Source: the human T2T-CHM13v2.0 reference genome, Homo sapiens. Taken from it: 64,000 nt of DNA. Location of the stretch: NCBI RefSeq assembly GCF_009914755.1, contig NC_060947.1; one strand, written 5' to 3'. Made by a program: the position numbers and the translations under genes. The notes under the pieces were generated by a model. That model was not told where the DNA came from. It did no database searches and saw nothing but the letters and a program-made list of their open reading frames with translations. How positions within the stretch are numbered: position 1 is the first letter of the stretch; every line of letters begins with the position of its first letter. Of the stretch, positions 741 to 51,917 are shown piece after piece.

Positions 741-1434
741 CGTGATGGTTAATATTAGGTGTCAACTGGACTGGATTGAGGGATACCTAAATGGCTGGTG
801 AAGCATTGTTCCTGAGTATGTTTGTGAAGGTGTTTCCAGAAGAGATAGATGCATGAGTCAGTAGGCTGAGAGGAAGATCCACCTTCAATGCAGGGTGGGG
901 GGCCGGGCTAGGACAAAGCAGGTGGAAGAAGGGGGATACTCGACTGGCTCTTGCTCCCTCGCTCTCATTTCTGGAGCAGGATGCCATTTTTTTCTTCTTG
1001 CCCTTGGACATCAGACTCCAGGTTCTTTGCCTTTTGGACTCTGGGACTTGCCCCAGGAGCCTCCTGGGCCTCTCTGACCTTCAGCCTCAGAGTGGGGGTT
1101 ACACTGTTGGCTTCCCTGGCTCTGAGGCTTTCAGACTTGGACTGAGCCACACTACTAGGCTTCTCTCGTTCTCTAGCTTGCAGACGCTCTATGGTGGAAC
1201 TTCACCTTTGTGATCGTATGAACGAATTCCCCCAATCAACCCCTTTATATATACATATACATATATATATATGTGTATATATATATACATATATATATGT
1301 ATATATATATACATATATATGTATATATATATACATATATATGTATATATATATACATATATATGTATATATATATACATATACACATATATATGAATAT
1401 ATATGTATATATAAATATATATACATATATATAC

Positions 1435-1516
<82 letters not shown>

Positions 1517-1551
1517 CTTGTTCTGTCCCCTGGAGAACCATGACTAATATG
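741..1551 (+). mobile_element. MLT2 (ERVL) solo LTR, MLT2A/B-like
   Basis: Start GTGATGGTTAATATTAGGTGTCAACT; end TTCTGTCCCCTGGAGAACCATGACTAATA; degenerate 5-bp TSD GCCCC/GCTTC. Confidence 0.85.
1246..1510. repeat. Compound microsatellite: interrupted (TA)n with CA/TG, then (GT)13 and (AT)22
   Basis: Read directly; lies in the TA-rich 3' part of the MLT2 LTR. Confidence 0.98.
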
Positions 1552-2084
1552 GCTTCCAAGGGTTCTCCCCTCATGGTATTTGTGCTCATGTGTAGTGCCA
1601 CATTGAATCAGGGCTGGTCTGTGTGACCAGTGGAATATGGCGGAGATGAGGGTATATGACTTCGTAGTCTAACACACAAAGGGTATTGTGCCTACTGCCT
1701 TGCTCTCTTAGATTTCTTACTCTTAGGGAAGCCAACCACTATGTCATGAGGACACTTAAGCAGCCCTGTGAAGAGAATCACATAGGAAAGGAATTGAGGC
1801 CTCCTACCAGCCAGCACCAACTTATAAGCCATGTGAGTGCATTATCTTGAAAGTAGATCCACCAGCCCCAGTCAAGTCTTTAGATGACTATAGGCCCCGC
1901 TGACATCTGACAATCTCTGACATCTGGCTTGAGATCACAAGCCAGAACCAGCCCAATCAAACTGTTCCCCAATTCCTGACCTACAGAAAATGTGAGAGAG
2001 AATATATGTTTATTGTTACACTATTGTTTTAAGCAACCTGTTACACAGCAATACAACTAGAATTCGGAAAAAGAAATCTTAAAA

Positions 2085-16416: not shown

Positions 16417-16727
<311 letters not shown>

Positions 16728-17359: not shown

Positions 17360-17990
17360 ACTTCCAGTTTCCTCTTGGAGATGTGGGAGTTAGAAATAGC
17401 GTGGCTCTAGGCCGGGGGCAGTGGCTCATGCCTGTAATCCCACCACTTTGGGAGGCCAAGGCAGATGGATCACTTGAGGTCAGGAGTTCGAGACCAGCTT
17501 TGCCAACATGGTGAAACTCTGTGTCTTCTAAAAATACAAAAATTAGCTGGGCATGGTGGTGCACACCTATAATCCCAGTTACTCAGGAGGCTGAGGCATG
17601 AGAATCGCTTGAACCTGGGAGGTGGAGGTTGCAGTGAGCCAAGATATCGCACCACTGCACTCCAGTCTGGGCAACAGAGCAAGACTTTGTCTCAAAAAAA
17701 AAAAAAAAAAAAAAAGGAATAGCATGGCTCCCACCCTTACAACATCAAAAAGCCGTCTGGGCTTAAAATTATTTTAAAAAGAAAAAAAAAAACAGACAAA
17801 CTGCAAGTTCAAACCTTTCTTGAATCCATCAGAAAGCTGAGGTCACAGGGCAAACAACTAATCCAACATCAAAGGACAGACAGACAGTGGCAGGGGCAGA
17901 TGAGACATGAGCCCTTGCTTACCTGAGTCAGATGCAGCTGGACATGAGTAAGAAGAATTCACTAGAATTTTTTTTAGCTTGTTTTAAAAA
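17360..17990 (+). mobile_element. Probable old L1M 5' UTR fragment, split by Alu
   Basis: GACTTCCAGTTTC start; TTTCTTGAATCCATCAGAAAGCTGAGGTCACAGGGCAA. Confidence 0.5.
17410..17715 (+). mobile_element. Alu (AluS)
   Basis: Full dimer, poly(A) tail, TSD AATAGC(G/A)TGGCTC. Confidence 0.97.
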
Positions 17991-19329
17991 TTATTTTTTG
18001 AAGTCTCATGTGGGTTTTGAGCCACAGTTTGAAATTCATTTTGAAACAAGACCCCCAGCTGTGCCACTTCTAGCTTCCCCACAGTGAGAGCTGGGCCATA
18101 GCGGAGGAGTGAGGGGGGAATATGGAAAGAACCCAAAACTTCTATTCTATCAAGATCCTTCAAGCCAGGAATGAAAGTGGGTGAGTTTGTACTGTTGGGG
18201 AAAGCCCTGGGCAGCTCTGAGCCTTAGTGTTTTGGGTACCCAAAGGGCAGCAGGAGGAAACCCAGTCAAAAGCACCCACACTAACTGCCACAAATGGTAT
18301 TTCTTCCCACAAGACGTCTGAAGTCCAAGGATTGGGCCAACCACAAGGATCAATAAGGATTCGCTTTGCTAGCAATTTCTACCACTGATGGGCTTGTCCC
18401 TTTGCAGATCTGGAGACACCCCCAGAGCTCTTCTCTCTGACAGTGTTTCCATTCTAGGGTCATCCCAGGCACAGCCTCCCAATAAACTCACCCTAAGTTT
18501 CCTTGCAATAAAATAAGCCAAGTGAAGGCAGAATCTTTAATTGCCAATCGTTGGGCAACTCCTGTAAGCTTTTCTGCACATAAAAGTTTTAGCCCTGTAG
18601 ATTTGAGATAAAACTGGATTGTTATTGGAAGATCTGAGATCTGGAAATAGTTTTGCTGGACTTTCTGAAGTCTTTAATCCCACAAACGTATATCATTTTT
18701 CTTTTCTGTGGACTTTTAGATAACATAAAAGAATTTAATGGAAAAAATGTTCATTTTCCAGGAAAACACTAATAATTAAGATTTCCTTCTTAATGAGAGG
18801 CCAACAGGGGTCAGGCTAACTGGAGAGGAGAAAGATAATTCCTCATATATTTTATGTTCCTTATTCTTTGTACCTTATTTTTCATAGCTCTTATGATCCC
18901 TGAGCCTCTCTGTGAACCATACTGCCTGGGAAGATACTCAACTCGGTCCTTCCCCTCAGAATTGGTGTGGATTACTTTTACTTACTGTGAATCCTTTACT
19001 TCCAGACCACCCCTTCTTTACTGTTGCCCACAAACCAGAAACTCAAGGAGAGATGTAGCTGAATTAAGAAATGTTCTTTTAACTTAAACAATTTTACAAG
19101 AAAAAACCAAACAACCCCATCAAAAAGTGGGCAAAGGATATGAACACACACTTCTCAAAAGAAGACATTTATGCAGCCAACAGACGTATGAAAAAATGCT
19201 CATCAAATGGTCATCAGAGAAATGCAAATCCAAACCACAATGAGATACCATCTCATGCCAGTTAGAATGGCGATCATTAAAAAGTCAGGAAACAACACAT
19301 GCTGGAGAGGATGTGGAGAAATAGGAATG

Positions 19330-19416
19330 CAATGAATAAATGATACATATAAGTATTTATTAATGTAGTTAAGATCAGTTCACTTGGGTTTTCTGACTCA
19401 TTTTCAGTGGACCATA
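19330..19416 (-). repeat. Inverted copy of 36121-36207 (templated insert A)
   Basis: Manual reverse-complement alignment: 83/87 identical, no gaps, all four differences transitions. Confidence 0.97.
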
Positions 19417-19418
19417 TA

Positions 19419-19473
19419 TTAGTATTTCACCAGGATAATCCCTTTCCCATGCAGTGAAACTCTTCTGTGACCT
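19419..19473 (-). repeat. Inverted copy of 21596-21650 (templated insert B)
   Basis: Manual reverse-complement alignment: 55/55 identical. Confidence 0.97.
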
Positions 19474-20934
19474 GTGACTTCTGTGTTGGTGGGAGTGTAA
19501 ATAGTTCAACCATTGTGGAAGACAGTGTGGTGATTCCTCAAGGATCTAGAACTAGAAATACCATTTGACCCAGCAATCCCATTACTGGGTATATACCCAA
19601 AGGATTATAAATCATGCTACTATAAAGACATATGCATGTGTATGTTTATTGCAGCACTATTCACAATAGCAAAGACGTGGAACCAACCCAAATGTCCATC
19701 AATAATAGGCCAGATAAAGAAAATGTGGCACATATACACCATGGAATACTATGCAGCCATAAAAAAGGATGAACTCATATCCTTTGCAGGGACATGGATG
19801 AAGCTGGAAACCATCGTTCTCAGCAAATCACCACAAGGACAGAGAACCAAACACTGCATGTTCTCACTCATAAGTGGGAGTTGAACAATGAGAACACATG
19901 GACACAGGGAGGTGAACATCATACACCAGGGCCTGTTGGGGGGTGGTGGGCTGGGGGAGCGATAGCATTAGGAGAAATACCTAATGTAAATGAAGGGTTG
20001 ATGGGTGCAGCAAACCAACATGGCACATGTATACCTACGTAACAAACCTGCACATTGTGCACATGTACCCTAGAACTTAAAGTATAATAAAAAAAATTTA
20101 AAACCCACTAGCAAAAAAAAAATGTTCTTTTTTTGGTTATCAACATAAAATAAACTTTCTAGAATTTCCAAAAATTTAATCAGATATCTCAAATTTCCTG
20201 AAGTCCTGTTTGTTGGTGAATTCTTGGTATTTCTTTGAATCGTTCACTTTCAGTAATCATCCCCTCAAGCTAATTTTATCATTCAGAGAAGAATCAAATC
20301 TAGTTTCCAAATATCCAGAGTTGTGAGTCTAATTTTATCCCCAAACTGAAATATTAGCTAGTTGTCCCATAGATTGCCCCTGGTCTCACCAACCTTGTTT
20401 TGGATCTGCTGAGGAAGTCTCACATCTAGTATCTTTAAAATGAAGTTTTGATCCTGATTCCTAGTTCCATATTCTGGTCTCTATATAAATTTCCCACCAC
20501 ATTAATTGATAGTTAATTACAGGACTCTCTTGGAACTGGCCAACTTCTTCCCACCAGTAATTGACTCAGGCCCAAATTGGATGTCGTGAACTGGCACTGG
20601 ACTCAAGATGCCCCTTTGTGTCTACTCTCATTTGAACCCTAGAGCTGAAGCTTGAACATTCTGAATTGGTATGCAAGACTGGAGTCCACTGAAATAGGGC
20701 TGGGTGAGAGCACCTGGATTAAATTCCCCCCACATTTTTCCTGGCAGTTGTGTTACCATTTAGGTTGAAGGAGGCCATCTTTGTGAGTGGAAATCCTCCA
20801 ATACACTCATGACTTCACCAAAGACAAGTGTGACATATTCTTCCATTCACTTGAACATTCAAATGGATTTTCTAGAAATTTCTAAATACTACCAGAATTA
20901 AACACTTCATGTCCTAGGAGAATAAATACAAAAT

Positions 20935-21570
<636 letters not shown>

Positions 21571-21595
21571 TCTACAGACACACACTCACACAAAT

Positions 21596-21650
21596 AGGTC
21601 ACAGAAGAGTTTCACTGCATGGGAAAGGGATTATCCTGGTGAAATACTAA
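21596..21650 (+). other. Donor sequence for insert B in the L1PA
   Basis: AGGTCACAGAAGAG...GGTGAAATACTAA is the exact reverse complement of 19419-19473. Confidence 0.95.
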
Positions 21651-22509
21651 GCCAAGTATCGGTGTCCATTTGCTCATTCTCATTAGGATTAAACTGAAAG
21701 CTGTTTATCTGCTGCTAGTTGCACAGGGATATATCTTGGCTTTACTTTCCAAATGGATTCTTGGCACAGTTGCATTGTTAGGGATATGGGATCCAAGACA
21801 AAAAGAAAAAAAAAACCAACATTGTGCTTAAGGAGTATACAAGAATTATGATTCCTAGATCTTTATCTACCTTGATGTTTTGAAAACTTGCTTTAAGAGA
21901 AATAACATGGGCCTGGAGTAGAAGGACAGGAAGGAAGGGGAAGCTGAGAGAACAGCCAGGAAGCTGGGACTAACAGCTGTTCTATTTTTCTGAACAGGGG
22001 GAATAAAATTAGGCAAGAGTTACAAATGCATGAGTGTAAAATAACAGCATGTCCAAGCAGGGCAGGGGGGTGGTGAGTCCTTATTGCTTGTGGGTAAAGG
22101 ACAATTAAAATTAGTTTATGAAAAGTTCATAAAGATGAATAAAGTGAAAGTACTCAGCAAGGTATTCATCTCTCTCTAACACAGGCTTTTCCTGCTGTAG
22201 ATGCATGAAGGGCGTGCTGAGATTCAATTAGTTTACCACCTCAGTGGATTTCTGCTATACGTACAGATTAAATACCAATTTCTATTCATTTCTGCCTTTC
22301 AACATTAAACCAAGGTGTGCGTAATGACGACAACAGCTTTCAACCAAAGGCCACAAAGACAGCTTCACAGGACTGAGCGACGTATCCACCTGGATTTATC
22401 TTTATGCAAAAGTCTTCATTTATGGCTTCTTTCTTTGTTCTTTCTCCAAACCAACCACTGTAAACTACACAACATGGCTCTTTTGCTTATTCATTTTTAA
22501 AAAGTCTTG

Positions 22510-22641
22510 TTTATTTATTATATAGAGATGGGGGTCTCACTATGTTGCCCAGGCTGATCTCAAACTCCTGGCCTCAAGCAATCCTCCTGCCTCAGCCTCC
22601 CAAAGTGCTGGGATTACAGGCGTAAGCCACTATGCCCAGTC
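22510..22641 (-). mobile_element. FLAM/Alu left monomer
   Basis: Single antisense monomer GGTCTCACTATGTTGCCCAGGCTG...GAGCCAC-like. Confidence 0.9.
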
Positions 22642-22875
22642 CATGGCTCTCTGTTTATACCTCAGTTTTAAAAATCAGAGTAAACAGTCATTTTGGGCAT
22701 TTGTTTTTCTGATAAAAGCTTCATAAATGTGCACACTCTTTTGCGTCTGCCTGCTCTCCCCACAGGCCTGTTGCTGCCCAAATCAGTGTGAAGAGTATGC
22801 CTTAATGGAGAAAACTACTGCTAAAAAGAGTCCATTAGCCCAATGGATGAATTTCTTGGACTGCATTAAAATCAG

Positions 22876-23270
22876 TTCAATCATTTAACACAATTATTAA
22901 ATGCATAATATATAGCGGACCATTTTAGGCATGGAACACAGCACAGCAAATAAAACAGACACAAATCCCTGCCTTTATGGAATTTAGACCCTAGTGGTGA
23001 TATAGGAAAAAAAATGAATAAAGGGAAGAGGGTTGGGAATGCCCAGGGTGGCGGTGGTAGAGCAGCTTTATAGCAGTTGATCCAGGGACGTAATGTTTGT
23101 GGAGATGTTTGAGCAAAGAAGGAGAAGGGAGCCAAGCAGATGTTTGAGAGAGAACATTCCACAAAGGTGAAATAACAAATGTGAAGGCCATGGAGTGAGA
23201 CTGCCCTGCTGATGGCAAGGCTACACTGATGCCAGGTTGGCTACAGGGAGCAAGGGAGGAAGTGAAGCAT
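22876..23270 (-). mobile_element. L2 3' end
   Basis: TTCAATCATTTAACA...AATAAAACAGACACAAATCCCTGCCTTTATGGA. Confidence 0.75.
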
Positions 23271-23529
23271 AGTTTGGAATTATAATTAAAATTTCAAAAA
23301 AAGCGTTCTTTCTCAGCCTGATTCCTACTAGGATAATATTTCTGATTTTCCTTCTCCTTTTAGACAAGATAAATGATTTGAGGTGGGTTATTACTAGAAA
23401 TTATTAAAAATAATAATAAGGCCATGCTCTCTGATATAGTTTCAATTATTACATTATTATCATATATGAACATATTCAGACTAGAAAAAAGATTATCATA
23501 GTCATGATAGTCACCACTATGACCACTAA

Positions 23530-23710
23530 TGATACAGTTACATCACAGTTTACATCATCTCATTTGAGCTTGTGATAATGCCTGGGTAAGGGGTGCTCCC
23601 TTTCTGCAGATAAGGAAAATTTTCCAATGCATTATGTGACTTGTCCAAAATTGCTCAGCTAGTAAATGCTGGAGGAGGGGTATGGACTAGAATTCCAGTA
23701 TTATTTTTGC
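23530..23710 (-). mobile_element. MIR
   Basis: TTTCTGCAGATAAGGAAA...TGTGACTTGTCCAA...CAGCTAGTAAATG. Confidence 0.7.
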
Positions 23711-24123
23711 TAAATTACACGACTTTCAGTGCCAACATCTGCTCAGAACATCTCTTCTCTCTATAATTTCCCCCTTTAAGAGAGAAAAGACCTGTAGCTA
23801 AGAAAGATTGGTTTACCTAATAAGGAAAAAGTAAAATGAACAATGACATTTATTATAATATTGTATATCATACTAAAAATAAGATACCTAAAACTCAGTA
23901 ATAAGACAGCACAACCTAAAAGCTCAATAATAAGAGACACATAAGTGTGGAATACTTACAGATGTGTGGAACACTATTATTCTATAATAATAAAATAAGA
24001 GCCACCCAGAGATGTCTACAACCTAATTTCCAGATTCTGTGTATATGTTACTTGGCAGGGAAAAGGGGAAGTAAGGTTGCAGATGGAATTCGGTTGCTAA
24101 TCAGGGAGATTATTGAGTGGGCC

Positions 24124-24855
24124 TATATTAGACCATTCTTACTTTGCTATAAAGAAACACCCGAGACAAAGTCATTTATTTATTTATTTTTATTTTTATT
24201 ATTATTATTTTTTTTGAGATGGAGTCTCGCTTTGTCACCCAGGCTGGAGTGCAGTGATGCGATCTCAGCTCACGGCAACCTCCTCCTCCCAGGTTCAAGC
24301 GATTCTCCTGCCTCAGTCTCCTGAGTAGCTGGGACTACAGGAACATGCCACCACACCCAGCTAATTTTCGTATTTTTATTAGAGACGGGGTTTCACCATG
24401 TTGGCCAGGCTGGTCTCGAACTCTTAACCTAAAGTTATCAGCCCGCCTTGGCCTCCCAAAGTGCAGGGATTACAGGTGTGAGCCACCTCACCCGGCCAAG
24501 ACCAAGTCATTTGTAAGAAAAGAGATCTCGTTGGCTTATGGTTCTGCAGGCGCTACAGGAAGCCTGGAGGAGGAGGCCTCAGGAGGCTTTGACTGGTGGT
24601 GGAAGGCAAAGTGGGAGCAGACACCTCACATGGCAAGAGCAGGAGAGAAAGATGGGAGAGGTGCCACACACTTTTAAACAACCAGATCTCACGAGAACTC
24701 ACTAACGCAAGGAGAATACCAAGAGAGATGGTGCTAAACCATTCATGAGATATCCACCACCATGACCCAATCACCTCCCACTAGGCCCCACCTCTAACAC
24801 TGGGGATTACAATTCAATGTGACATTTGGGCGGGGACACACATCCAAACTATATA
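24124..24855 (-). mobile_element. MSTA-type MaLR LTR, split by Alu
   Basis: TTGCTATAAAGAAA...CACACTTTTAAACAACCAGATCTCACGAGAACTCAC...GGGGACACACATCCAAACTATAT. Confidence 0.9.
24178..24497 (-). mobile_element. Alu (AluS)
   Basis: Antisense dimer; TSD AGAC(A/C)AAGTCATTT. Confidence 0.95.
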
Positions 24856-26866
24856 TTTTAAGGCCCAGGAGTCCTTAAAAGTGAAAGAGGAAGATGTGAC
24901 TATGGGAGAAAGGCACAGAGAGATGCAATGTTATTGACTTCAAAGATATATGAAGGAGCCCCGAGTCAAGGAATGCAGGAGGCCTCTAGTAGCTGTAAAG
25001 GACAAAGGAATGATTCTCCTCTGGGCCTCCAGAAAGGAGTACAGCCCTGTTGACACCTTGATTTCAGCTCAGTGAGACCCATGCCGGAATGCTGACCTCT
25101 ATAATTGTCATATAATAAATCTGTGTTGTTTTTCAGCTGTTGTGTTTGTGGTAATTTGTTACAGCAGCAATAGGAAACTAATACAATAAGCCAAAATGGA
25201 CTATATACTTGAGGCTCGGTCATGTAAATATTTAAATGATACCTTGAGAGCTATGGAATAACATGGAAAATATTTAGGATCTATATTTAAAAAGCAATAT
25301 ACAGACATGTATACACAGTGCGGTTAGAACTAGGTTTGATAAACAAAGAAACAGAAATCTTAGCTGAGTGAATATAAAATCTGGGAGAAAAGCCAGAAAA
25401 ATGTGAACCGTGAGTAATGTGAGGGGTGGAATGATGCCGATTCATTTTTCTTTTCTTTCAACTTTTATGAATTTTTCAAATTTCCTTTAATGGGCCTGCA
25501 TGAAGAAAACACTAAAATTAAGTTTCAACTTGATCTGAGAAAGTAAAAATCCTATTTAGAGAGCTGCAGTGATATATGTTGCCAGAGAGGACACCATCAG
25601 TCATGACCTCTGTGGTAAAATAGCAGTATTCTTCCTCGTTTCATCTAGGTAGCCAGATGGAGAAACAGTTACCATTTTAGCAGCTGGTACTAAAATTCCT
25701 ATGTTGGGAGAGACCTATCTTAGTTGAAAAGCTGAAAAGGAGCTTTGTGAAGTTCACCAGCAGAAGGAAGTCCCCAGTGCTGAACCACTCCTCAGATTTC
25801 ACTTTAAGGAAGGGAGAAGGAGGAGCAATGGGGCTGAGGCTGCTTACGGCTGGAGTCAGGAGAGGGTAGAGAAGTGGCAGCTGAGGCTGGAAGAAAAGTT
25901 TCGAAGGAAAACACAAACCTATAGCATATTTTCAAAGGAATTCAGTGTGCGGTAGATGGGATGCCTCCCTGTTATTCCCGATCTTCACCCAAACAGTAAC
26001 TTGTCCATGTTTGATTTGATTTCACAGGGAAACTAAAAAGGGTGGTGAGATTTGCATCAAGGACAACCCGGTTGTAAACTGGGCTAGCTTGTGTGGATGC
26101 GGAGAGTGTGAGATCTAAAATCATGTCTCGTGGTGTGCCTACCATGTGTCTTCAACTTTGCTGGGTGTTCACTGCCTGTTCAACATCTCCCCTTCCTAGG
26201 GTACCTCCTAACCCACGTGTAATGTGTGGCCCATTGCAAATTAACAAGTGTTTGCAAAGCTATTTCACTACCTTGAGTTGCATTTCATGTACAAGAAGCC
26301 AGCCCTTGGATTCCCTGGGATTTGAGCCAGTTTGTTGCAAAGCAACCACTCAACTGCTGCTCCCCTGAGAACCCGCGGAGGCTCCTCACTGCCGATGTTC
26401 CCCAGGGACTGAGAAGCCACTCGCTCTTCAGTGTGAGATGGTTTTAGAGGTAGGGGTCTGCAGTTATTCAAAGGAGCCATAAGTGCTTGTGCTGCCCTCA
26501 AAAGCCCAGAAGATGCTGGGAAGTGGTGTTTGTTAGAGGACCCATTGGGGATTCTATATCCTTCATGGGGTCCTTGAGAGTCAAAGGAACTTCACTCCAC
26601 CAGACATCCCAGAAACAGAGCTCCTGAGGTGCCCATGATTGAAAACGAGGGCTCTTCCCTAGAGACCCTCTGGGCCAAATCCCGCCATTGCTCACAGCGT
26701 TCTCTCCACAGTGGCAATAGCCTCTTTGGTTTTCTCCAGTTCTGTCTTGAGGGCTCAATGACCCAGAGCTCCCTTGGAGTCAGGTGATATTCTAGAGGCC
26801 TAATGTCTGCCTCTGTGGGTGGCAACACTCACTACCAAAAACGTGGGGGAGTAGTAGTGGTGATAT

Positions 26867-26868
<2 letters not shown>

Positions 26869-26897
<29 letters not shown>

Positions 26898-26912
26898 CAC
26901 GCGCGCGCATGC
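26869..26912. repeat. (GT)n-(GC)n alternating purine-pyrimidine tract
   Basis: 44 bp of unbroken alternation, read directly. Confidence 0.95.
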
Positions 26913-26949
26913 CTGTGCCTACATCAAGGGGGAGAGGGAAGGAAGGAAA

Positions 26950-29081
<2,132 letters not shown>

Positions 29082-30439
29082 CAGAAACAACTATTTAGCA
29101 GAGTTCCCCCCGCCCCACCCAAATAAAGCAAGAGTTTTGCTTTTTGGGTTGACAAAGAACTTATTTGACTACTTCACTAAAGCAAATACTTTGCCAGGAA
29201 TATAGGAGAAGTTAAAGGGAATAGAATTATTTCTACACGATTACGATGATAAAAGTTTCAACTTACTATGAAAACAAGAGTTCAAATAAAGTATTTTTTA
29301 AAAAGCCACCAGAAGGTGGTTTAAAAAGGCTTTATTCTCTTGAATAACAATGCTTGCCAGTTTGAATAAGATTAGCTTTTCTTTTTAAATCTAATCTAGA
29401 AAGCTTTTATAATTGATTTATAAATCATTTTTATATCTTTCATCAGTGGTCTGAAAAATCTTAATAAAGACTCTGTTGACGTTAGTAGATCCATCTCAAG
29501 AACTGTAAAGACTCTTTGTGTAAATACACACTGGGAAAAAAAATCTGAGTCCTGGTTTTTGACCACTTGTTTCTGGTCTGTGTGTGTGTGTGTGCCTTTC
29601 TCTTACATACAACCCAACCAAACACTTTCTTTTCAAAATATTATGATCATCACTATGTCTGTTGCACCAGAGGAATTTTCAGTATTCTAAAAATAACTTC
29701 AATTCTATAGAGTCAGAGTGTTTTTAGTTACAGATGCCCAGACAGTAGGGCTTCACATCAGATCCATCTTAAAATACCTTAAAAGACATAGAGAATAATG
29801 GAAACATGGAAAATGATTTGGAAATTAGGATAACTAACTCTGATTAAAATTAACTTTTATAATGGCCAAAGGATAAAATACTGGTGTTAATGATTAATCT
29901 GAGAGGCTTGAGAGAAACCTGATTTTTTTTCTCTTTCTTGTCTTCTGTTTGCTTCCTGCTGCCTTTTTCTCTGTAATATTTTGGCATCAGCTAGAACTGG
30001 TTTGAGCCCCATGCTTCTACCAGCCTTCATGAAAAATCCTAAGCCCAGGAGTAGGAAGCTAGGTAGACTCTAGGCAAAAGGCATGACTAAAGCAAGTTTT
30101 TCCCTTCTTGTTTTCTTTCTGGGTCACCTGCTTTTGATTTAAAATTTTTGTATAACTGGATTAAAAATTTTCCTCTTTCTCGTACATATATTGTGATAGA
30201 TATAAGCAATTTGTTTTATTCCTATCTTCAACCACGGGAAATGAATTGTTTGAACCTGATTTATGTTGCTTATAAAAGGCACAATGAAGACTACTTACTG
30301 AATTCTAATAACTGCACAATCCTTACGAAAAGCTTGGTGGTAAGAATGAATATTCATGAGACCACCTAAGGAATGTAAAATCCATTGCTTACTACGGATA
30401 TTCAGGGACTCCAGGTTAGGGGTGCATTGAAACTGAAAG

Positions 30440-30855
30440 TGTTAATTAGTCATTGCTGTTTAACAAACGATCTCCAGTTCTCAGGAGCTTATAGTCATGT
30501 TTCCACGCACAGGTCTATGGGTCAGCTGTGGTTTGGCTGGAATCATCCAGGATTAGGAGAGCTTGCCTCCAGGCTGCACATTGGTTTTAGGCCTGCTTCA
30601 TGTGTTTCCTCACTCTCTCTGGACCAGCAGCTACTCAGGGTATATTCTCCTCACGGTGAATCACAGGAGCATAAGATGTCATGCCCAATCACACACCTGT
30701 GCCTCTTCAGCTTTAAAGTTCCAGTCAAGTTTGCAGAGTTTCCACTGGCTAAGCCCAAAGTCAAGGGGTGGGGACGCACTCTGTACTATTGCAATGCTAG
30801 GTCACACGGCAAAGGGAGGGAGAGAAGAATTAATAACAATAATCCATCTGCCACA
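30440..30855 (-). mobile_element. Old MLT1 (I/J/K-like) MaLR LTR
   Basis: TTGCTGTTTAACAAAC...TCTATGGGTCAGCTG...AAGCCCAAAGTCAAGGGGTGGG...TCTGCCACA. Confidence 0.7.
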
Positions 30856-30864
30856 CTGACCAAA

Positions 30865-31030
30865 TTTATCTGTGATTGATTTCCTCATTTGTAAAATGAA
30901 ACAAAACACACACACACACGAACAAAAAAACTCTATCTCCTGGAGTTGTAAGGGTTAAAGAACTTAGAACAGTGCTTGGCACGCATGAAAAGGTTAATAT
31001 GGTTACTACTATTGCTGTTGTTAACATTGT
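30865..31030 (+). mobile_element. MIR
   Basis: TTTCCTCATTTGTAAAATG...CTTAGAACAGTGCTTGGCAC. Confidence 0.7.
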
Positions 31031-31287
31031 TGTTGTTTTTATTGTTTTGCTTCTGTCTTTGCCACAGAAAAGCTTAGAGACAAACTTTCTGCCCTCTTCT
31101 AGCAAGCACGTAGGGAAATGGTTTGCACACCAAATTTACCCCTATGCTTTGTCTTACTTTTTAATGTTATTTTCCTTCTTTGATTCTTTCCTAAATTATT
31201 TTTTTCATCCTGTTAATTGAATACACTGATGTAAGCAGTCTGTAAATGTTTCCCTATATTGTTAGTTGTAGTATGATGAATAAATAA

Positions 31288-31620
<333 letters not shown>

Positions 31621-32299
31621 TCTTTTTTTCTCTAAACCTTGACTTCCCATGTGTTTGCCATCTCTGTCAATGCTGCAGTAGCCCTTCTTCCGTATTTACA
31701 CTAGGCAAAATCGACTTTGTTGCTCTTGCTATCACCAAACGTCAGGTTATAAGTTTCTTTGTTTATTGCCTACTCCCCTGCTCTCAACTATGATTTTTAC
31801 ATGTCTCTTTTGTCATTGGCAAGTACAAAATAGGCATGCCATAAATATTTGAATGAAGGAATAAATAAATAAATCAGTGTGTTTGTAATTACTTCTACAT
31901 GCATTCTAGCCTAGATTTTCTGTTGTGGTGTAGATATTAACAGCATGGATTGGCTGTAGGATCCCCCTTTCTTTCCACAACCTCTAGAGTCTAGTTCTGC
32001 CCCTTCCATTGCACTGAAACTGGGTTTGGTAAGGTCATTGAATACTGTCCTATTTGCAATCCAATGGTCTTTTCTCTGACATAACCACTTTGTAAGGTAT
32101 GCCAGGGTCAATCACTGTTTTCTTCTTAAAATCTTTACTTCTGTAGCTTTTGTGACTCCAGCTTGTCACCTCTCTGGGCAGTAGTCTTTTACCTGCAGGT
32201 TAATTCACATCAGGGACACAAGAAATCAGATTCTCCCTGGGATAGGGGCACATGTCCTCTGATGATTCCTAGGGGCACTGCAAGCCGAACTTATTAAAA

Positions 32300-33240
32300 A
32301 TTGAATTTACTTCTTCACCCTTTACCCCCAAACCGTCACTGGCTTCCTCATGCTGGTTAACTGCGTCAAAAGCCATCTCATTTTTAAGCTGTCCATCTTT
32401 TTATCATTCTTGATTCTTTATCCATGTCCCTCCCCACTCCTCTCTCAACTATAATCAGTCCCTAAAATATTGACTTTGTGTTTGTTTGTTTTCTCAAAGC
32501 ATCCTCTTTCCTTCTCTCATAAAGTTGTCTTGGTCCAGGACCTCCAGATTCTTGACTTTACTTCAAGAACTTTCTAAGGCATCTCTCAGCCTCCAGCCTC
32601 TTCCCACTTCCAACTTACTTTTCACCCTACTGCATGATAATTCTTCTAAAATGCAGATCGGTAGCTTTCCTTTGCCTTCAGTGTGAAGTCCAAACCTTTT
32701 GGCATGGCATGCAAAACACTGCCTTTCTCTCCTCTTCCATGACCTCCCAACCTCCACCATGCATACTTTGCTAAACTTGAGCTACTTAGTGTTTCTTGCA
32801 ATGGCCAGAGCATTCTCTTCTCTTCTCTCCTTTCTTCTCTCCTCTCCTTTCCTTCTCTTCTTCTCTTTCTCTCTCTCAACTTTTTATATCATAATCCTTA
32901 AGAATGCCCATTTCTCTTTCTTTGCCCTCTGGGATAATTTCTGCCCTTTCTCCAAGGCTCACTTCTAGAGTTCCCTCCACTGGGAAAGTCCTCTATCCTA
33001 CTGCCTCTACTTACTCCGTGCTATTGAGTGTTCTTCCTTGGTGTTTCTATCACACCTTATAAGTAACCTCAATAACAGTTCCTTTCAGGTTTAGTAATAA
33101 TTATTAATTTCTCCACTAGATTGTGAGATTCTTTAGAGTAGAAACTTTTTACATTATGTCTGCATTCATAGTAAATAAGTCTTAGCACATAGAAAACAGT
33201 AAAAATAAAAGTGTGGCATTGAGATAAATTGAATTGAGTT
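32300..33240 (+). mobile_element. Degraded L2 3' region
   Basis: GAAGTCCAAACCTTTTGGCATGGCATGCAA; CCACTAGATTGTGAG...CTTAGCACATAG. Confidence 0.6.
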
Positions 33241-33909
33241 AATTAAAAACAGTATTCCTTCCAGCTCTCAATTCTGGAGGGTTACGTCAGTTTTCAGTTC
33301 ATCAGAAATGGTCACTTCTTTGTTTAAATGGAAATTTAACAAAATAGTGTCTAGTTGATGTTGACCTGAATCAGAATATGAAAAGTGTTTTTTTTGTTTT
33401 TTGTTTTTTTTTTTTTTTACAGGTATTTTGGCTTGTGGTTGTAATTTGGCACCAAAATTGGTTTCAGTATGTTTAATGACATCCGAGTATGGAAACCACA
33501 CTGTCATCTGGCATGGGACAATTGGGGCTAAGGTAGAAGCAGTTATACAAATGAGACCCTGATTTGTTCTCTTCTTCTCTCATCTTTCTTACTTCCATTG
33601 TCATAGGAGTTCTTTGTTCCTACCAGATTGAAATAGGAATGCTACTTTTTTTTTTTTTTTTTTCAAGTGGATGGTGTTAATATAGCTCTGGGGAAAAAAC
33701 AGTGTCACAAAAAGCACTGGAAATGATCTCACCAACCAACCATCCATATGACCTGTATTCTGGGCTATGTTCCAGTAATGGAAATAAGTTTGCTTTGTTC
33801 CGGATGCATTTCCTCACCCAGGATCCTTTGTCAGCTCTCCTTCCCCATACATCCCACAGTGGTTATTACAGACTTATTGTTCTGGTGCTACTGCACCTCC
33901 AGAGTCACC

Positions 33910-34120
33910 CAGTGGCCAAGGGCACTGGCTTCAGGGGAAGTATAAACTCAGGTTTGCACCCAGTTGCTGCTCTACTCTCTAGTTGTTGATGAATGACTGA
34001 ACCTCGGTCGTCAGTTTTCTCATTTATGAGATGTGGATAATAACACCAACTCCATCGGGCTAGGTGAAGCCAATCCTATAAAGTTCTTCATCCAGCCAGT
34101 ACCCTGCACATAGTAATTCT
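33910..34120 (+). mobile_element. MIR
   Basis: TCAGTTTTCTCATTTATGAGATGTGGATAATAACACC. Confidence 0.6.
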
Positions 34121-34298
34121 GTACCATCCATTTCCATTTTATATATAAAAGTCATATAGTTTCAATCAGATCGTTAGCTCCCCAAATCCACTTACGAACT
34201 GTTACTTTCAGGAAGTTATTTCTACAGCTGAATATTTCATTTATAAACTGACTTCATCCTGAGGGATTATTCTTGTCATCTGCCACCTAGAACCCCCT

Positions 34299-34756
34299 TC
34301 TTAGTCTCCTAAGGCAGCTGTAACAAAGTACCACAGACTAGGTGGCTTAGGACAACACAAATTTATTCTCTCACAGTTCTCGAGGATAGACATCTGAAGT
34401 CAAGGTGTCCTCAGAGCCATGCTCCCTCTAATACTCTGGGTAGAATCCTTTTGTGCCTCTACATAGCGTCTAGTGGTGGCCATCAATTGTTGGCATTTAT
34501 TGGTTCACAGCCCTATCACTCCAGTCTCTACCTCTGCCTTCACATGACCACCTCCTCCCCATGTGTCCCTGTCTTCACATGGCATTTTCTTCTTTTTGTG
34601 GGGGACACCAGTCATATCAGGTTAGGGCTTACTCTAATGACTTCATCTTAACTCGATTACATCTATAGAGACACTATTTCCAAATAAAGTCGCATTCACA
34701 GGTTATAACTTCAGTGCTTTTAGATTATCTTTTTGAAGACACAATTCAACCCATAA
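34299..34756 (-). mobile_element. MLT1C-type MaLR LTR
   Basis: GCTGTAACAAAGTACCACAGACTAGGTGGCTTA...TATTTCCAAATAAAGTCGCATTC...GACACAATTCAACCCATAA. Confidence 0.9.
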
Positions 34757-34789
34757 AACCATTTAATGAAGAACTTGCTATCCCCAGCT

Positions 34790-35139
34790 ATAGGAAGGGG
34801 TAATGGGAGATGAGCTTCAGGGACTATTCATCTGTAGAGTCCAGCCCTCTCACCCAAGGTCAAGTTCCTTCTTGAGGTGACCCACATTCAATGACAGATT
34901 AATGCAGGGATATAGAGGCCTGGCCATCTCTCCAACCTAGCGTAACTTTGAAGGGCCCTTCCAACTCCAAAGCCCTGTGGTGTCAGTGGAGGCTATTATT
35001 GTGCTTGGGTTGCAGGTTGACTTCTCTCTCTGCCTAGTCCTGCTTCTGTCCCTAAACATTCACAGGTATTGATCCCAACAAATGCCCTTGTAATAATCTC
35101 TAGCTCAAAGTCTACTTCCTGGAGAGGCAACCTGTGACA
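34790..35139 (+). mobile_element. LTR16-family ERVL LTR
   Basis: CAACTCCAAAGCCC...CTCTGCCTAGTCCTGCTTC...CACAGGTATTGATCCC...AACCTGTGACA. Confidence 0.75.
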
Positions 35140-36120
35140 GTACTTGAAAGGAGAGAGTGCCTCCTGAAACATTTTATTCACCAGGGTTGCTACTTCCTGG
35201 GCACATAGTAAACAATCAATAAATCCTAACTGGACTTATTGGGTCACATTTCTCTGAGTAATTGGGCAGAATTGAGTACGGAATTTATTTGATAGTTGCC
35301 TGAGACATGAATGAATCCCCATGTAGATTGAATCCATGATGCATCACACATTCAAATGGACCACCCTTCATTTAGCCCAAGCTCCTTGTTGTCACAACCA
35401 CCAACAAGACATTCTCTGTAGTCTTATGTGGCATGACAGTCAGATGCTCTCCGTACCTGATAATAAGATAATCACTCAGCATGAATTCAATATAACTGAC
35501 CATAGAAATAACCAACCTAAAGCAATGGTTTGGAAATTGATGACTAAGAAGTTGAGAAACATACGTATTTCAATTCAGGGACCAGGTGCGGGGTCAGGAA
35601 AACATGGGGGCCCAAACACATTGAAAGTTACTTGCTCTGGGCAGGTATTTTTATAACAGAACTTAGCAAAAGGGAGCCTAAAGGGGGAGAAAGTCATTAT
35701 GTCTTTAACACTAACCAGTAGGGGCAGGTATCTTTGGGCCCTTGGCAAACTCATCCCTATAGAGAAAGTGGAAACATCAATGGCACTGGTTATTAGTTCC
35801 AGATGACTCTCCTTGCTTTTCCTTCTTGCACTTCCAGGGAGTACATTGTGGTAACAGCTGACATGAGGACTGTGATCTACTTGGCAGGAGTAGTTCTCAG
35901 TGTTAAATGAAAAAGTTGAGATTCTGCTGTATGAACCAGTCTACTGTATGTTTGGTTAGCTTGGATCATCCTGAGAAAGTACTCAATTATGGGTGCCCTA
36001 TCCTAGTTAGACAGTACTTTGGAACATGGCTAGGTATATATAATCACTTGATCTAGAAGCCAGCTTCTCTCTTCAGCTGACATCTCTGCCTCCTCACTTT
36101 CTGTAACTGTATTTTGTTTT

Positions 36121-36207
36121 TATGGTCTACTGAAAATGAGCCAGAAAACCCAGGTGAACTGATCTTAACTACATTAATAAATATTTATATGTATCATTTA
36201 TTCATTG
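36121..36207 (+). other. Donor sequence for insert A in the L1PA (overlaps the tip of an antisense L2 3' end at ~36195-36250)
   Basis: Reverse complement matches 19330-19416 at 83/87. Confidence 0.95.
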
Positions 36208-36263
36208 AACAAATATTTGTTGAGAGTCTACTATGTGCCAGGAATTGTCATGTCCAAGGGGGT

Positions 36264-36541
36264 TGATATGGGTTGAATTGTGTCACCCCAAAATTTGTAT
36301 ATTGAAGTCCTTACCCCCGCTACCTCAGAATGTGACCTTATTTGGAAACAGGGTCATTGCAGATATCATTTGTTAAGATGAGGTCCTACTGGAGTAGAGT
36401 GGGCCCCTCATCCAATATAACTGGTATCCTTTTAACTTGATCTCAGACTTCTGGCCTTCAGAACTGTGAGATAATAAATTTCTGTTGTTTAAGCCACCCA
36501 GATTGTGGTAACTTGTTATGTAGCCCTAGCAAACCAATACA
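36264..36541 (+). mobile_element. MLT1B-type MaLR LTR with internal deletion
   Basis: TATGGGTTGAATTGTGTC...GAATGTGACCTTATTTGGAAA...AGCCCTAGCAAACCAATACA; only ~280 bp long. Confidence 0.85.
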
Positions 36542-37525
36542 GGGATTCAATAGTGTTTACATTTGAAACCATTCCTGCCTTCATAAAGCTTACAGTCTTC
36601 GTATATGTATGTGTTTGTGTGAGTGTGCCCACATGTTCCAGCCAAGACCACCTGGAGACAGATGTGGTCAGTCAACCCATCTCCTATTCTATGTGAAACC
36701 CAGTATCCTTGTGGACATTTCTGCAAGTTCCTGGGAACTCGAGTGCTCCAGGCCACTTCTGGCCCTGCATTCTTGCTTCATCACAACTCCCGTCTCCCCA
36801 TCTATGGCTGATCTCTTATCTCTGCTTTTCTCATCCAACCCAGGCACTGTTTTTTTTTCCCCTCAAGGTCTTCTCACGCACGGCTATTGTGTATATAGAT
36901 GACTTCTCTGAAAGTTTGGAAAGATTAGAAAAAGGGATATTGTAATCACGTTAATTACTTAAAATTGAGGTAAAACATGCCATCTTCCTAAATATTTTAA
37001 GAGCTTCCCTGCACCGGGCAATTTCTCTTGGGGGAATGGTTTCCACAAGCCCGACTTGGCTGCCATTTTGACCTGGCATTTTCTCCCTCTTCACCTTCTG
37101 TTCTTTTCCAGCCCCAAATTTGCTGGTCAAGTTTTGTTATAAAATTTAGCTCTTTCTTTGTTTTTAAGTATTCTTATAGATAATGACTCATTTTTCAACC
37201 ATATGAAAACGCTGATATTTGATCATCTTTGACCTGCAAAAATAATAACTTCATTTTAATTAATCCAAGATTTTTCTTAACAATGACAGCTTTCTTTCTG
37301 AGTGACAGCTGCTAAAATAACAATATATCTGAAGATATATGTAGGAACATATATCTTATATCCATGCACATGCATAGAAAATATAGTAAAAAGAAAAAAA
37401 TGCAAGTAGCCCTAGAGGAATGGAAAAGGGTTTTCTTTCTTTTGCACGTTTCTTTATACTTTTCTATATTTTTCCACGTTCTACAATGAACATACACTGC
37501 TTTTTATTATCAGAAAAAGTGTTCC

Positions 37526-48303: not shown

Positions 48304-48449
48304 AGTTCCAGTTCAGGGTATTGACGCTTAGGAAATAGAGGTTTCTTACCCCAGAGTAGGAATTACAAGCTGGAGTTCCAGCTCAGGACATTGATGCTTA
48401 GGAAATGGAGGTTTCTTACCCCAGAAGAGGAATTACAATCTGGAGCTCC
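48304..48449. repeat. 70-bp direct tandem duplication
   Basis: AGTTCCAG(T/C)TCAGG..TTGA(C/T)GCTTAGGAAAT(A/G)GAGGTTTCTTACCCCAGA..AGGAATTACAA.CTGG starts at 48304 and again at 48374. Confidence 0.95.
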
Positions 48450-50995: not shown

Positions 50996-51185
50996 TTGAG
51001 AGTCTTCTTTACCTTTCTATTTCTACTTTGATGAGATCGGGCACATTCAGGGTGGTATGGCTATAGTCTGTTCCCACTTTGAATATCCTTCCGTTCCCCA
51101 ATTTACCAATGCCATTTGCTTCTTTTGTTATATTTTCATGAAATATTTCAAGGATAGAAAACACACAGAATAACATAACAAACAG

Positions 51186-51917
51186 TGAAACCACGTTTGC
51201 AAGAATTAAAACTGAGGAAATTATGACTGAGAAAGAGATCAGAACTAACCAACTCCATTTTGCTTCTAAACTTTAAGCTGTCCTTGTTCATTCCTGGGCA
51301 TAGGCTGAACTAACTTTGGGAAGGAATTCAGTTCATGGTTTGACTCTGGAACAGAACTGATAATAGCCCTTTCCCGAAAAGACCCCCTTCTTGCCTAGGG
51401 ACCAGTTTGCCTTTGCAGGACTAACAAATTAGCTGCAAGATTAGAAACTATAGTTTAAGGGTCATGCAGCCCCTGGCTCCAAGAGTCTGAACCTCCCCAA
51501 ATTGCTCCGAGGAATATCACTATTATAAAACCTAAGATCAGCGCTTGAGATATTTTGCAGACCCTGCACTCCATGGATCAGCTGACACCACCCAGACCCG
51601 TAATCTGGCTCAACCATTTCTGCCATCCCACCCAGGAACAGAAGACAGCAAGAAAACCTCACTTCGACCCCCTGTTATTCCATCTCTCACCCCACCAATC
51701 AGCACTCCCCACTTCCCAAGACCCTACCCGCCAAATATCTTTACAAACTCCGATCCTGGAATGCTCGGGGAGACTGATTTGAGTAATAATAAAACTCTGG
51801 TCTCCTGCACAGCCGGCTCTGTATGAATTACTCTTTCTCCATTGCAATTCCCCCATCTTGATAAATTGGCTCTGTCTAGGCAGTGGGCAAGGTGAAGGAA
51901 CCTGCTGGGCAGTTATA
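51186..51917 (+). mobile_element. LTR8A-like (HUERS-P1) ERV1 solo LTR
   Basis: TGAAACCACGTTTGCAAG...AAGCTGTCCTTGTTCATTCCTGGGCATAGGC...GGGCAGTTATA; 732 bp. Confidence 0.9.

What the first reader, a model, noticed from the sequence alone, without database searches (positions are those of the whole stretch)
19330..19487. L1 carries a composite insertion copied, inverted, from two sites 2 kb and 17 kb downstream
Seen: the L1PA breaks after ...GAAATAGGAATGC and resumes at TGTTGGTGGGAGTGTAA. About 8 nt of the recalled consensus (TTTTACAC) are replaced by ~153 nt. 19330-19416 is the reverse complement of 36121-36207 (83/87, all transitions). After a 2-nt TA linker, 19419-19473 is the reverse complement of 21596-21650 (55/55). 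Both donors remain in place, so this was copying, not moving. Established: multi-segment templated insertions mark template-switching repair (MMBIR/FoSTeS, Pol theta end joining), and L1 reverse transcriptase can also switch templates. Inference: both pieces come from the minus strand and lie in the order a minus-strand transcript would read them (36 kb, then 21.6 kb). Either a broken end invaded two looped-in neighbouring sites, or a polymerase/RT hopped along a nascent antisense RNA. The event may record an ancient germline chromatin contact or RNA-templated repair.
Basis: partly seen in the sequence, partly recalled or inferred. Interest (0 to 1): 0.85.

Follow-up and report, generated by a model that had tools for sequence, protein, structure and literature searches.

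The report
Old templated-repair scar inside an L1
A 1-kb L1 fragment on human chrX carries a 153-base patch stitched from inverted copies of two nearby unique sequences, the footprint of an old germline break or stalled fork repaired by a template-switching polymerase; it is a clean example of a known kind of mutation.

Summary
19330-19416 is the reverse complement of 36207-36121 (83/87, four non-CpG transitions). TA follows. 19419-19473 is the reverse complement of 21650-21596 (55/55). Across the 3.1-Gb assembly the insert matches only itself and these two donors. In 99 of 100 listed L1 copies the same flanks lie 8 nt apart, so 8 nt were replaced by 153.

New here:
- The L1 right flank matches the donor-2 flank just outside the copy at 12/15, in exact register. 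Only 8 of 127,972 window positions score that high.
- The L1 left flank matches the donor-1 flank at 8/15. The inner junction has no homology.
- An old dispersed repeat runs across the donor-1 boundary, so the donor is the original.
- The insert-donor divergence (2.8%) is lower than expected if the patch were as old as the L1 (P 0.04 to 0.0005).

Best reading: a post-integration germline break or stalled fork repaired by annealing-primed template switching (MMBIR/FoSTeS type, with Pol-theta-like stutter). RNA templating and capture at L1 integration are not excluded. This is a new member of a known kind, of modest interest.

The parts
19081..20119 (+). 5'-truncated L1PA-type element (ORF2 3' end, 3'UTR and A-tail) that hosts the insert
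   Evidence: Sequence read. The closest paralogues are 91-93% identical over 592 nt. Its flanks around the insert are identical to those of 1013 other copies. The subfamily was not assigned because no repeat library is available.
19069..19080 (+). Left target-site duplication AAATGTTCTTTT of the L1
   Evidence: The same 12-mer recurs at 20120-20131, directly after the A-tail. This shows one ordinary L1 insertion spanning both halves.
20120..20131 (+). Right target-site duplication
   Evidence: compared.
19316..19330 (+). L1 left flank up to the break. C at 19330 is shared with donor 1 (1-nt microhomology).
   Evidence: alignment. It matches the donor-1 outer flank (rc 36207-36221) at 8/15 in register 0. 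3315 of 127,972 window positions do as well.
19330..19416 (+). Piece 1: inverted copy of 36121-36207
   Evidence: 83/87, E 4e-36. The differences are at 19353, 19384, 19396 and 19409; all are transitions and none is in a CpG.
19417..19418 (+). TA filler at the inner junction
   Evidence: It is templated by neither donor's continuation. There is no flank homology at this junction: the best of 9 registers gives 5-6/15, and 20-37% of window positions reach that.
19419..19473 (+). Piece 2: inverted copy of 21596-21650
   Evidence: 55/55, E 1e-26.
19472..19485 (+). Stutter. 19472-19478 CTGTGAC re-copies 19465-19471, and 19478-19485 CTTCTGTG re-copies 19462-19469. Together they explain the 10-nt filler 19474-19483. 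The overlaps are CT, C and TG.
   Evidence: Random 10-mers that can be tiled by <=2 substrings of the preceding 15 nt on the same strand: 89 of 200,000. Under a permissive definition (+-60 nt, both strands): 21,440 of 200,000.
19484..19498 (+). L1 right flank, homeologous to the donor-2 outer flank
   Evidence: 12/15 with rc 21596-21582 in exact register. Only 8 of 127,972 window positions reach 12/15, counting the flank itself and this site.
21596..21650 (-). Donor 2 (template of piece 2), 2.1 kb downstream
   Evidence: It is the only other genomic match to piece 2.
21582..21596 (-). Donor-2 outer flank, part of a TG-rich tract, homeologous to the L1 right flank
36121..36207 (-). Donor 1 (template of piece 1), 16.6 kb downstream
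   Evidence: Apart from the insert it is single-copy in the genome.
36190..36262 (-). Old dispersed repeat running across the donor-1 boundary, 10-17 nt into the copied segment. I recall it as the 3' end of a MIR; no repeat library was used.
   Evidence: All 39 non-self hits, on many chromosomes and 81-92% identical, start before and end after the boundary at 36207/36208. The donor locus is therefore the original context.

Best explanation
After this L1 had integrated, its DNA was broken, or a replication fork stalled, in the germline within the 8 nt TTTTACAC. Repair did not simply rejoin the ends. The 3' ends were extended by a DNA polymerase on ectopic templates on the same chromosome. The first tract was 87 nt from 36.1-36.2 kb and the second 55 nt from 21.6 kb, each copied in inverted orientation. 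The donors were left intact. Choice of template was helped by imperfect base pairing between the L1 flanks and the sequence just outside each copied tract (microhomeology). A few abortive 5-6-nt re-copies (stutter) and a 2-nt filler completed the join. The event belongs to the MMBIR/FoSTeS type of templated insertion, with Pol-theta-like stutter at one junction.

Shown: the copies, their uniqueness, the direction donor to insert, the stutter, and the flank homeology.

Inferred: the break or fork, which polymerase acted, the order of steps, and that the event occurred in the germline.

My preferred sub-model is that the two ends primed separately, the left end on donor 1 and the right end on donor 2, and that the two extended ends were then joined at the TA. 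A serial three-switch path by one end or one nascent strand fits about as well.
For: 1. Two highly significant inverted copies, and no other such pair in the window.
2. Genome-wide, the 158-nt query hits only itself and the two donors, so it is not a repeat family or a shared L1 variant.
3. The L1 is otherwise ordinary. It has a TSD around the whole element, and 99 of 100 listed paralogues have an 8-nt spacer where this copy has 153 nt.
4. The donor is the original: a dispersed repeat crosses the donor-1 boundary in 39 of 39 non-self hits.
5. The 10-nt filler is made of two overlapping re-copies of the adjacent 12 nt (89 of 200,000 random fillers under the strict definition). That is a polymerase signature, not a ligation signature.
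6. There is flank homeology in exact register outside the copied tracts: 12/15 at the right junction (8 of 127,972 positions reach this; about 0.0025 after allowing 40 looks) and 8/15 at the left (p 0.026). The Fisher combined p is 2e-5. At 80% the right-hand match falls within the published definition of microhomeology (>=70% identity over >=5 bp; 7-14 bp at 70-90% observed; PMC6902434, passages read).
7. Dating: 4/142 = 2.8% pairwise (95% CI 0.8-7.1%), against an expected 6.7-10.6% if the patch were as old as the L1. The L1's own non-CpG branch is 3.3-5.3%. P(<=4 differences) is 0.037 to 0.0005.
8. The class is documented in human germlines. [quoted passage not shown] Templated insertions of 7 bp to 13 kb occur at FoSTeS/MMBIR junctions (PMC5120786, passages). 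Small inverted duplications with 1-15 bp microhomology form a common polymorphic class (PMC12350158, passages).
Against: - No direct evidence of a break or of which polymerase acted.
- Exact microhomology is minimal: 1 nt, 0 nt plus filler, and 2 nt.
- The tracts (87 and 55 nt) and the distances (2.1 and 16.6 kb) are far beyond typical Pol-theta templated insertions, which are 3-30 bp from flanking DNA with tracts rarely over 10 bp (PMC7165422). They are also outside the 100-bp search space in which germline MMB-TIs were catalogued (PMC8421209).
- The 12/15 register predicts a clean junction. The stutter sits exactly there and is not simply explained by that register.
- The left-flank match (8/15, 53%) fails the 70% microhomeology criterion.
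- The strict stutter statistic was defined after seeing the data. Under the permissive definition 11-15% of 10-mers pass.
- The dating rests on four substitutions, and the L1 branch length includes differences between source elements, so the p-values are soft.
- A DNA template cannot be told apart from an unspliced RNA template.
- No outgroup or population data were available.
Confidence: 0.7

Rival explanations
1. RNA-templated repair. A nascent unspliced minus-strand transcript crossing 36 kb and 21.6 kb served as template for a reverse-transcribing polymerase (L1 ORF2p in trans, Pol theta or Pol eta) that patched the break, hopping 3' to 5' along the RNA.
For: Both pieces have minus-strand sense and lie in transcript order. 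The flank homeology requires only that the template extend beyond the copied tract, which an unspliced RNA would do. Class 2 templated sequence insertions are argued to derive from RNA (PMC5110952, first part of the text and passages). A 2025 paper reports transcript-templated DSB repair in human cells (PMC12065846, search listing and abstract start only).
Against: No gene is annotated in the window (hub note). There are no splice junctions or poly-A in the insert and no Rfam family at the donors. The same geometry arises from DNA templates. If the two ends primed separately, the left end would need a plus-strand template, which one minus-strand RNA cannot supply.
Confidence: 0.1
2. Capture at L1 integration. 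During target-primed reverse transcription the growing L1 cDNA left the L1 RNA at 19484, copied two nearby minus-strand templates, and returned to the L1 RNA 8 nt further on.
For: cDNA synthesis runs right to left here, the direction in which the 12/15 homeology would prime on donor 2. That L1 reverse transcriptase can switch templates is recalled, not checked here.
Against: The patch is less diverged from its donors than expected for the age of the L1 (P 0.037-0.0005). The model needs a return to the same RNA almost in register after two excursions. The insert has no hallmarks of L1-mediated capture (no poly-A, no TSD of its own). It also needs single-stranded minus-strand templates 2 and 17 kb from the nick.
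Confidence: 0.08
3. End-joining capture of two free DNA fragments, for example released from nearby damage, ligated into a break by NHEJ.
For: Junction microhomology is 0-2 nt with a 2-nt filler, as in NHEJ. Fragment capture at breaks is described in PMC5110952.
Against: The donors are intact in place. The homeology lies in donor sequence outside the captured tracts, which a free fragment would not carry. The stutter re-copies imply synthesis. Both fragments come from within 17 kb on the same side and have the same orientation.
Confidence: 0.07
4. Two independent events: piece 1 inserted first, and piece 2 plus the stutter inserted later at its edge.
For: All four substitutions are in piece 1 and none in piece 2.
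Against: This split is expected by chance 14% of the time under a single age, and P(0 in 55 nt) is 0.075. The model would need two breaks at the same spot, both using inverted downstream donors.
Confidence: 0.04
5. Assembly artefact or chance similarity.
For: None found. Reads could not be inspected.
Against: E-values are 4e-36 and 1e-26. The four substitutions and the clean junctions are not what a collapsed or chimeric assembly gives. NCBI's repeat mask breaks at 19332/19481 (hub note).
Confidence: 0.01

Closest known systems
MMBIR/FoSTeS templated insertions (germline MMB-TI; PMC8421209, PMC5120786, PMC6902434)
   Same: Inverted copies of nearby sequence. Several templates in one event. Return to the original locus with a small loss. 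Micro-homology or -homeology at switch points. Donors retained. Fixed or segregating in germlines without a larger rearrangement.
   Different: The templates lie 2.1 and 16.6 kb away, whereas the catalogued germline MMB-TIs were searched only within 100 bp. No accompanying copy-number change. Exact microhomology is only 0-2 nt.
Polymerase-theta end-joining templated insertions (TINS; PMC7165422)
   Same: Repeated abortive synthesis producing short re-copies of adjacent sequence with 1-2-nt overlaps (19472-19485). A small deletion at the break.
   Different: TINS are 3-30 bp and come from DNA flanking the break, with tracts rarely over 10 bp. The main tracts here are 87 and 55 nt from kilobases away.
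Class 2 templated sequence insertion polymorphisms (PMC5110952)
   Same: A patch at a presumed break with microdeletion, microhomology and non-templated nucleotides. No TSD or poly-A of its own.
   Different: TSIPs are defined from distant, often other-chromosome and transcribed donors, and are polymorphic. Here there are two local donors, and polymorphism is unknown.
Short-range template switches in great-ape evolution (four-point model; PMC5453318)
   Same: A reverse-complement fragment replaces a few bases and creates an inverted repeat.
   Different: That model assumes one switch-and-return within the same fork over tens of bases. Here there are two long-range donors plus stutter.
Small inverted duplications in long-read human SV catalogues (PMC12350158)
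   Same: An insertion that is an inverted copy of nearby sequence, with microhomology-type junctions.
   Different: The median length there is 284 bp for a single segment. This one is a two-segment composite of 142 nt.

Membership tests
MMBIR/FoSTeS-type templated insertion | The inserted sequence is a copy of a template elsewhere on the chromosome, and the template is retained | tested here: met
   both donors are present, and these are the only genomic matches.
MMBIR/FoSTeS-type templated insertion | Iterative template switches (more than one template or re-copy in one junction) | tested here: met
   Two donors plus two short re-copies.
MMBIR/FoSTeS-type templated insertion | Microhomology or microhomeology at the switch points | tested here: inconclusive
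   Right outer junction: 12/15 (80%), only 8 of 127,972 positions match as well. Left outer junction: 1-nt microhomology and 8/15, below the 70% criterion. Inner junction: none, with a TA filler.
MMBIR/FoSTeS-type templated insertion | Template within 100 bp of the insertion (operational definition of MMBSearch) | tested here: not met
   The donors lie 2.1 kb and 16.6 kb away. This is a property of that search tool, not of the mechanism.
MMBIR/FoSTeS-type templated insertion | Arises from a collapsed fork or one-ended break and depends on BIR factors | not testable with these tools
   Needs experiments or de novo events.
Pol-theta TMEJ templated insertion | Insert of 3-30 bp identical to DNA flanking the break, made in short tracts | tested here: not met
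   The main tracts are 87 and 55 nt from kilobases away. Only the 10-nt stutter fits. Criteria.
Pol-theta TMEJ templated insertion | POLQ dependence | not testable with these tools
   An evolutionary scar.
Class 2 TSIP | No TSD, no poly-A and no cryptic poly-A signal at the insert; microdeletion, microhomology and non-templated bases at the junctions | tested here: met
   8 nt lost, a 1-nt overlap, a TA filler, no A-run and no duplication at the insert ends.
Class 2 TSIP | Donor in a distant genomic region; the insertion is polymorphic in humans | not tested
   The donors are local. No population data were available.
L1-mediated capture (class 1 TSIP, transduction, chimeric retrocopy) | The insert is bounded by its own TSD and ends in poly-A at a TTTT/A site | tested here: not met
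   No poly-A and no TSD at 19330/19484. The only TSD brackets the whole L1.
L1 twin priming | The 5' part of the L1 is inverted relative to the 3' part | tested here: not met
   Both L1 halves are on the + strand and collinear, 8 nt apart in the family.

The most novel reading that the evidence does not exclude
The scar records a germline break whose repair copied from a single-stranded minus-strand template reaching at least 16.6 kb from the break. That template was either a nascent antisense RNA, which would make this RNA-templated repair fixed in the human lineage, or a resected DNA tail folding back over 2 and 17 kb. Transposon copies, whose intact sequence is known from thousands of paralogues, could then serve genome-wide as built-in ancestral references for counting such long-range templated repairs, which current 100-bp-window tools miss.
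Probability: 0.12. Interest if true: 0.6.

Novelty: new member of a known kind. Interest (0 to 1): 0.3.

Why it matters
As a single locus it matters little. It lies in a gene-free stretch and has no predicted function. Its value is as a very clean, fully resolved example showing three things. First, germline templated insertions can draw on donors 2 and 17 kb away, beyond the range scanned by published detectors. Second, imperfect flank pairing (12/15) can be seen at the template choice. Third, an interrupted transposon gives the pre-event sequence without an outgroup, which suggests a simple genome-wide screen for this class.

Tried and rejected
- Dispersed repeat, or a shared variant of L1 paralogues: rejected. 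The whole-assembly search gives only the insert itself and the two donors.
- Small RNA gene as donor (U6-type chimera): rejected. Rfam at E<=1 over 19000-37000 gives only Alu-derived sub-threshold hits, none at the insert or the donors.
- Spliced-transcript retrocopy: rejected. Donor 1 is followed by AAAACA, not GT, and the copy of donor 2 includes the TTAG that would be intronic.
- A third long donor for the remaining 10 nt: none exists. They are local re-copies.
- Homology at the inner junction: none.
- Polymerase error as the source of the four substitutions: set aside as unlikely, from recalled error rates. Not tested.
- Primate orthologues, other human assemblies, reads, transcription data and contact data could not be reached with these tools.
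- The L1 subfamily could not be assigned because no repeat library is available. Only pairwise distances were used.
- In one search, one of the 12 arbitrary loci (L015) was dropped because its match was short (368 nt).

Full report
**1. The observation**

I read the region and both proposed donors. I then searched 19300-19520 against the whole window with blastn-short.
- 19330-19416 equals the reverse complement of 36207-36121 at 83/87 (E 4e-36).
- 19419-19473 equals the reverse complement of 21650-21596 at 55/55 (E 1e-26).
- All further hits are 11-16 nt with E >= 0.17.
- The four differences lie at 19353, 19384, 19396 and 19409. All are transitions and none is in a CpG.
- TA sits between the pieces at 19417-19418.

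An all-against-all self BLAST gave 215 non-self HSPs, mostly Alu pairs at 68-90% identity. Three HSPs reach >=92% identity over >=40 nt. Two are the reported hits and the third is a palindromic simple repeat at 1466-1511 (Alu families).

**2. Host element and what was lost**

The host is one ordinary 5'-truncated L1 on the + strand, 19081-20119. It is bracketed by the target-site duplication AAATGTTCTTTT (19069-19080 and 20120-20131).

I searched the assembly for the 16 nt left and the 18 nt right of the insert with a 0-30-nt gap. This gave 1013 matches, against 0 for the reversed control. Of the 100 rows listed, 99 have an 8-nt spacer and one has 7 nt. By my hand count 73 carry exactly TTTTACAC.

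**3. Uniqueness and direction of copying**

The window's own assembly (3.1 Gb, 24 contigs) was searched with 19330-19487. It holds three matches: the insert itself, donor 1 (95%) and donor 2 (100%). The tool scores only the best candidates and skips very common words. All three candidates it found were scored.

This rules out a dispersed repeat family and a variant shared by paralogous L1s.

- The 87 nt of donor 1 have no other genomic match.
- An old dispersed repeat runs across the donor-1 boundary. All 39 non-self hits to 36186-36262 begin before the boundary and end 8-18 nt past it, inside the copied segment. I recall this repeat as the 3' end of a MIR, but I had no repeat library to confirm the name.
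- The 36-kb locus is therefore the original context and the L1 patch is the copy.
- Rfam finds nothing at the insert or the donors.

**4. The unexplained 10 nt**

87+2+55 is 144, not 153. The remaining GTGACTTCTG (19474-19483) is fully explained by two overlapping re-copies of the last 12 nt of piece 2.
- CTGTGAC (19472-19478) repeats 19465-19471.
- CTTCTGTG (19478-19485) repeats 19462-19469.
- The overlaps are CT, C and TG.

Random 10-mers can be tiled this way from the preceding 15 nt on the same strand in 89 of 200,000 trials. That definition was chosen after seeing the data. Under a permissive definition (any two substrings within +-60 nt, either strand), 21,440 of 200,000 random 10-mers pass, and 1382 of 9100 real window 10-mers pass.

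Such stutter is what aborted rounds of polymerase synthesis leave (PMC7165422, passages read).

**5. Junction anatomy**

Exact microhomology is small: C at the left junction, none plus the TA filler in the middle, and TG at the right junction.

Imperfect homology is another matter.
- The L1 right flank TGTTGGTGGGAGTGT (19484-19498) matches the minus-strand continuation of donor 2 (21596 down to 21582) at 12/15. The match is in exact register, starting at the last copied base.
- Over both strands of the window, only 8 of 127,972 positions reach 12/15, counting the flank itself and this site. After allowing 40 looks this is about 0.0025.
- The L1 left flank matches the outer flank of donor 1 at 8/15, also at register 0 (3315 of 127,972 positions, p 0.026).
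- The inner junction shows nothing: 5-6/15 at the best of nine registers.
- The Fisher combined p for the two outer junctions is 2e-5.

The 80% match fits the published definition of microhomeology, proposed as a signature of replicative template switching (PMC6902434, passages). The 53% match does not.

This homeology lies in donor sequence that was not copied. It therefore speaks for annealing-primed synthesis on an extended template and against ligation of free fragments.

**6. Age**

The copy and its donors differ at 4 of 142 sites, or 2.8% (95% CI 0.8-7.1%). I estimated the L1's own branch from pairwise distances without building any consensus.
- Against its 19 closest paralogues the branch is 3.3% at non-CpG columns. 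This estimate is biased low.
- Against 11 arbitrary copies it is 5.3%. This is biased high by subfamily differences. A twelfth copy was dropped for a short match.

If the patch were as old as the L1, 9.5-15 differences would be expected. P(<=4) is 0.037 to 0.0005. This favours an event well after integration, but it rests on four substitutions.

That all four fall in piece 1 is not significant (p 0.14; P of none in 55 nt is 0.075), so one event suffices. An absolute date would depend on recalled rates, so I give none. The divergence is of the order seen between great-ape lineages, so I expect the patch to be shared by several apes.

**7. Mechanism**

The best-supported reading is a germline break or stalled fork inside the L1, repaired by template-switching DNA synthesis. 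This is the MMBIR/FoSTeS type, with Pol-theta-like stutter at the right junction.

Geometrically, both pieces are inverted and both donors lie downstream. Four routes give this geometry:
- (a) The right end's resected minus-strand tail folds back on itself.
- (b) The nascent leading strand of a leftward fork switches to the lagging-strand template behind it.
- (c) A minus-strand RNA serves as template.
- (d) Each end primes separately, the left end on the plus strand at 36.2 kb and the right end on the minus strand at 21.6 kb, and the two extended ends are joined at the TA.

Route (d) best fits homeology at both outer junctions with none at the inner one. It then makes the 'transcript order' a coincidence. 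None of the four can be excluded from sequence alone.

One point remains unexplained. The 12/15 register predicts a clean junction, yet the stutter sits exactly there.

**8. Comparison with what is known**

- Templated insertions of 7 bp to 13 kb occur at FoSTeS/MMBIR junctions (PMC5120786, passages).
- Pol-theta insertions are 3-30 bp and local (PMC7165422).
- Class 2 templated sequence insertion polymorphisms share the junction features but come from distant donors, argued to be RNA-derived (PMC5110952, first part of the text and passages).
- Short-range switches in ape evolution (PMC5453318, passages) and small inverted duplications in 1,019 long-read genomes (PMC12350158, passages) are the population-scale counterparts.

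This locus is therefore a new member of a known kind. It is unusual only in the donor distances and in how completely it can be resolved. I did not search the literature for this specific locus. My four searches were for the class. Supplementary tables of these papers were not opened and may list comparable long-range events.

**9. Verdict**

Interest is modest.

Noticed in passing
window 20098-20119: Between the L1's first A-run and the target-site duplication lie 16 nt (TTTAAAACCCACTAGC) followed by a second A-run. This may be a very short 3' transduction or a patchy tail.
   Followed up: no
window 36208-36221: The 14 nt immediately outside the donor-1 boundary (AACAAATATTTGTT) form a perfect palindrome within an AT-rich stretch. 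Such DNA melts easily and might have favoured its use as a priming site.
   Followed up: no
window 21566-21595: Donor 2 abuts a TG-rich, microsatellite-like tract. Part of it forms the 12/15 homeology with the L1 flank. Its composition raises chance similarity, which is why an empirical window-wide null was used.
   Followed up: partly
window 16435-16705 / 17406-17645 and 21026-21332 / 24191-24497: Two inverted Alu pairs (84% and 80% complementary, 726 nt and 2.9 kb apart) flank the break and donor 2. Closely spaced inverted Alus are recalled to stall forks and break. Whether that is relevant here is speculative.
   Followed up: no
window 19331 (lost L1 spacer, known only from paralogues): The 8 nt lost from the L1 begin with TTTTA. 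I recall this as resembling the preferred L1 endonuclease nick site. An endonuclease-made break is conceivable but the motif is common.
   Followed up: no
window 51182-51896 and 58423-59105: Five collinear direct-repeat blocks 78-88% identical lie about 7.2 kb apart (D13, D14, D16, D18, D19). They look like two related old elements or the two ends of one.
   Followed up: no
window 48304-48443: A two-copy tandem duplication of a 70-nt unit, 89% identical (D15).
   Followed up: no
window 1202-1557: A low-complexity array with 8-14-nt periodicity that contains a 46-nt perfect palindrome at 1466-1511.
   Followed up: no
window 36256-36340: A second dispersed repeat lies just upstream (minus-strand reading) of the MIR-like element at donor 1. 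It has 82-89% matches on many chromosomes. The family was not named.
   Followed up: no
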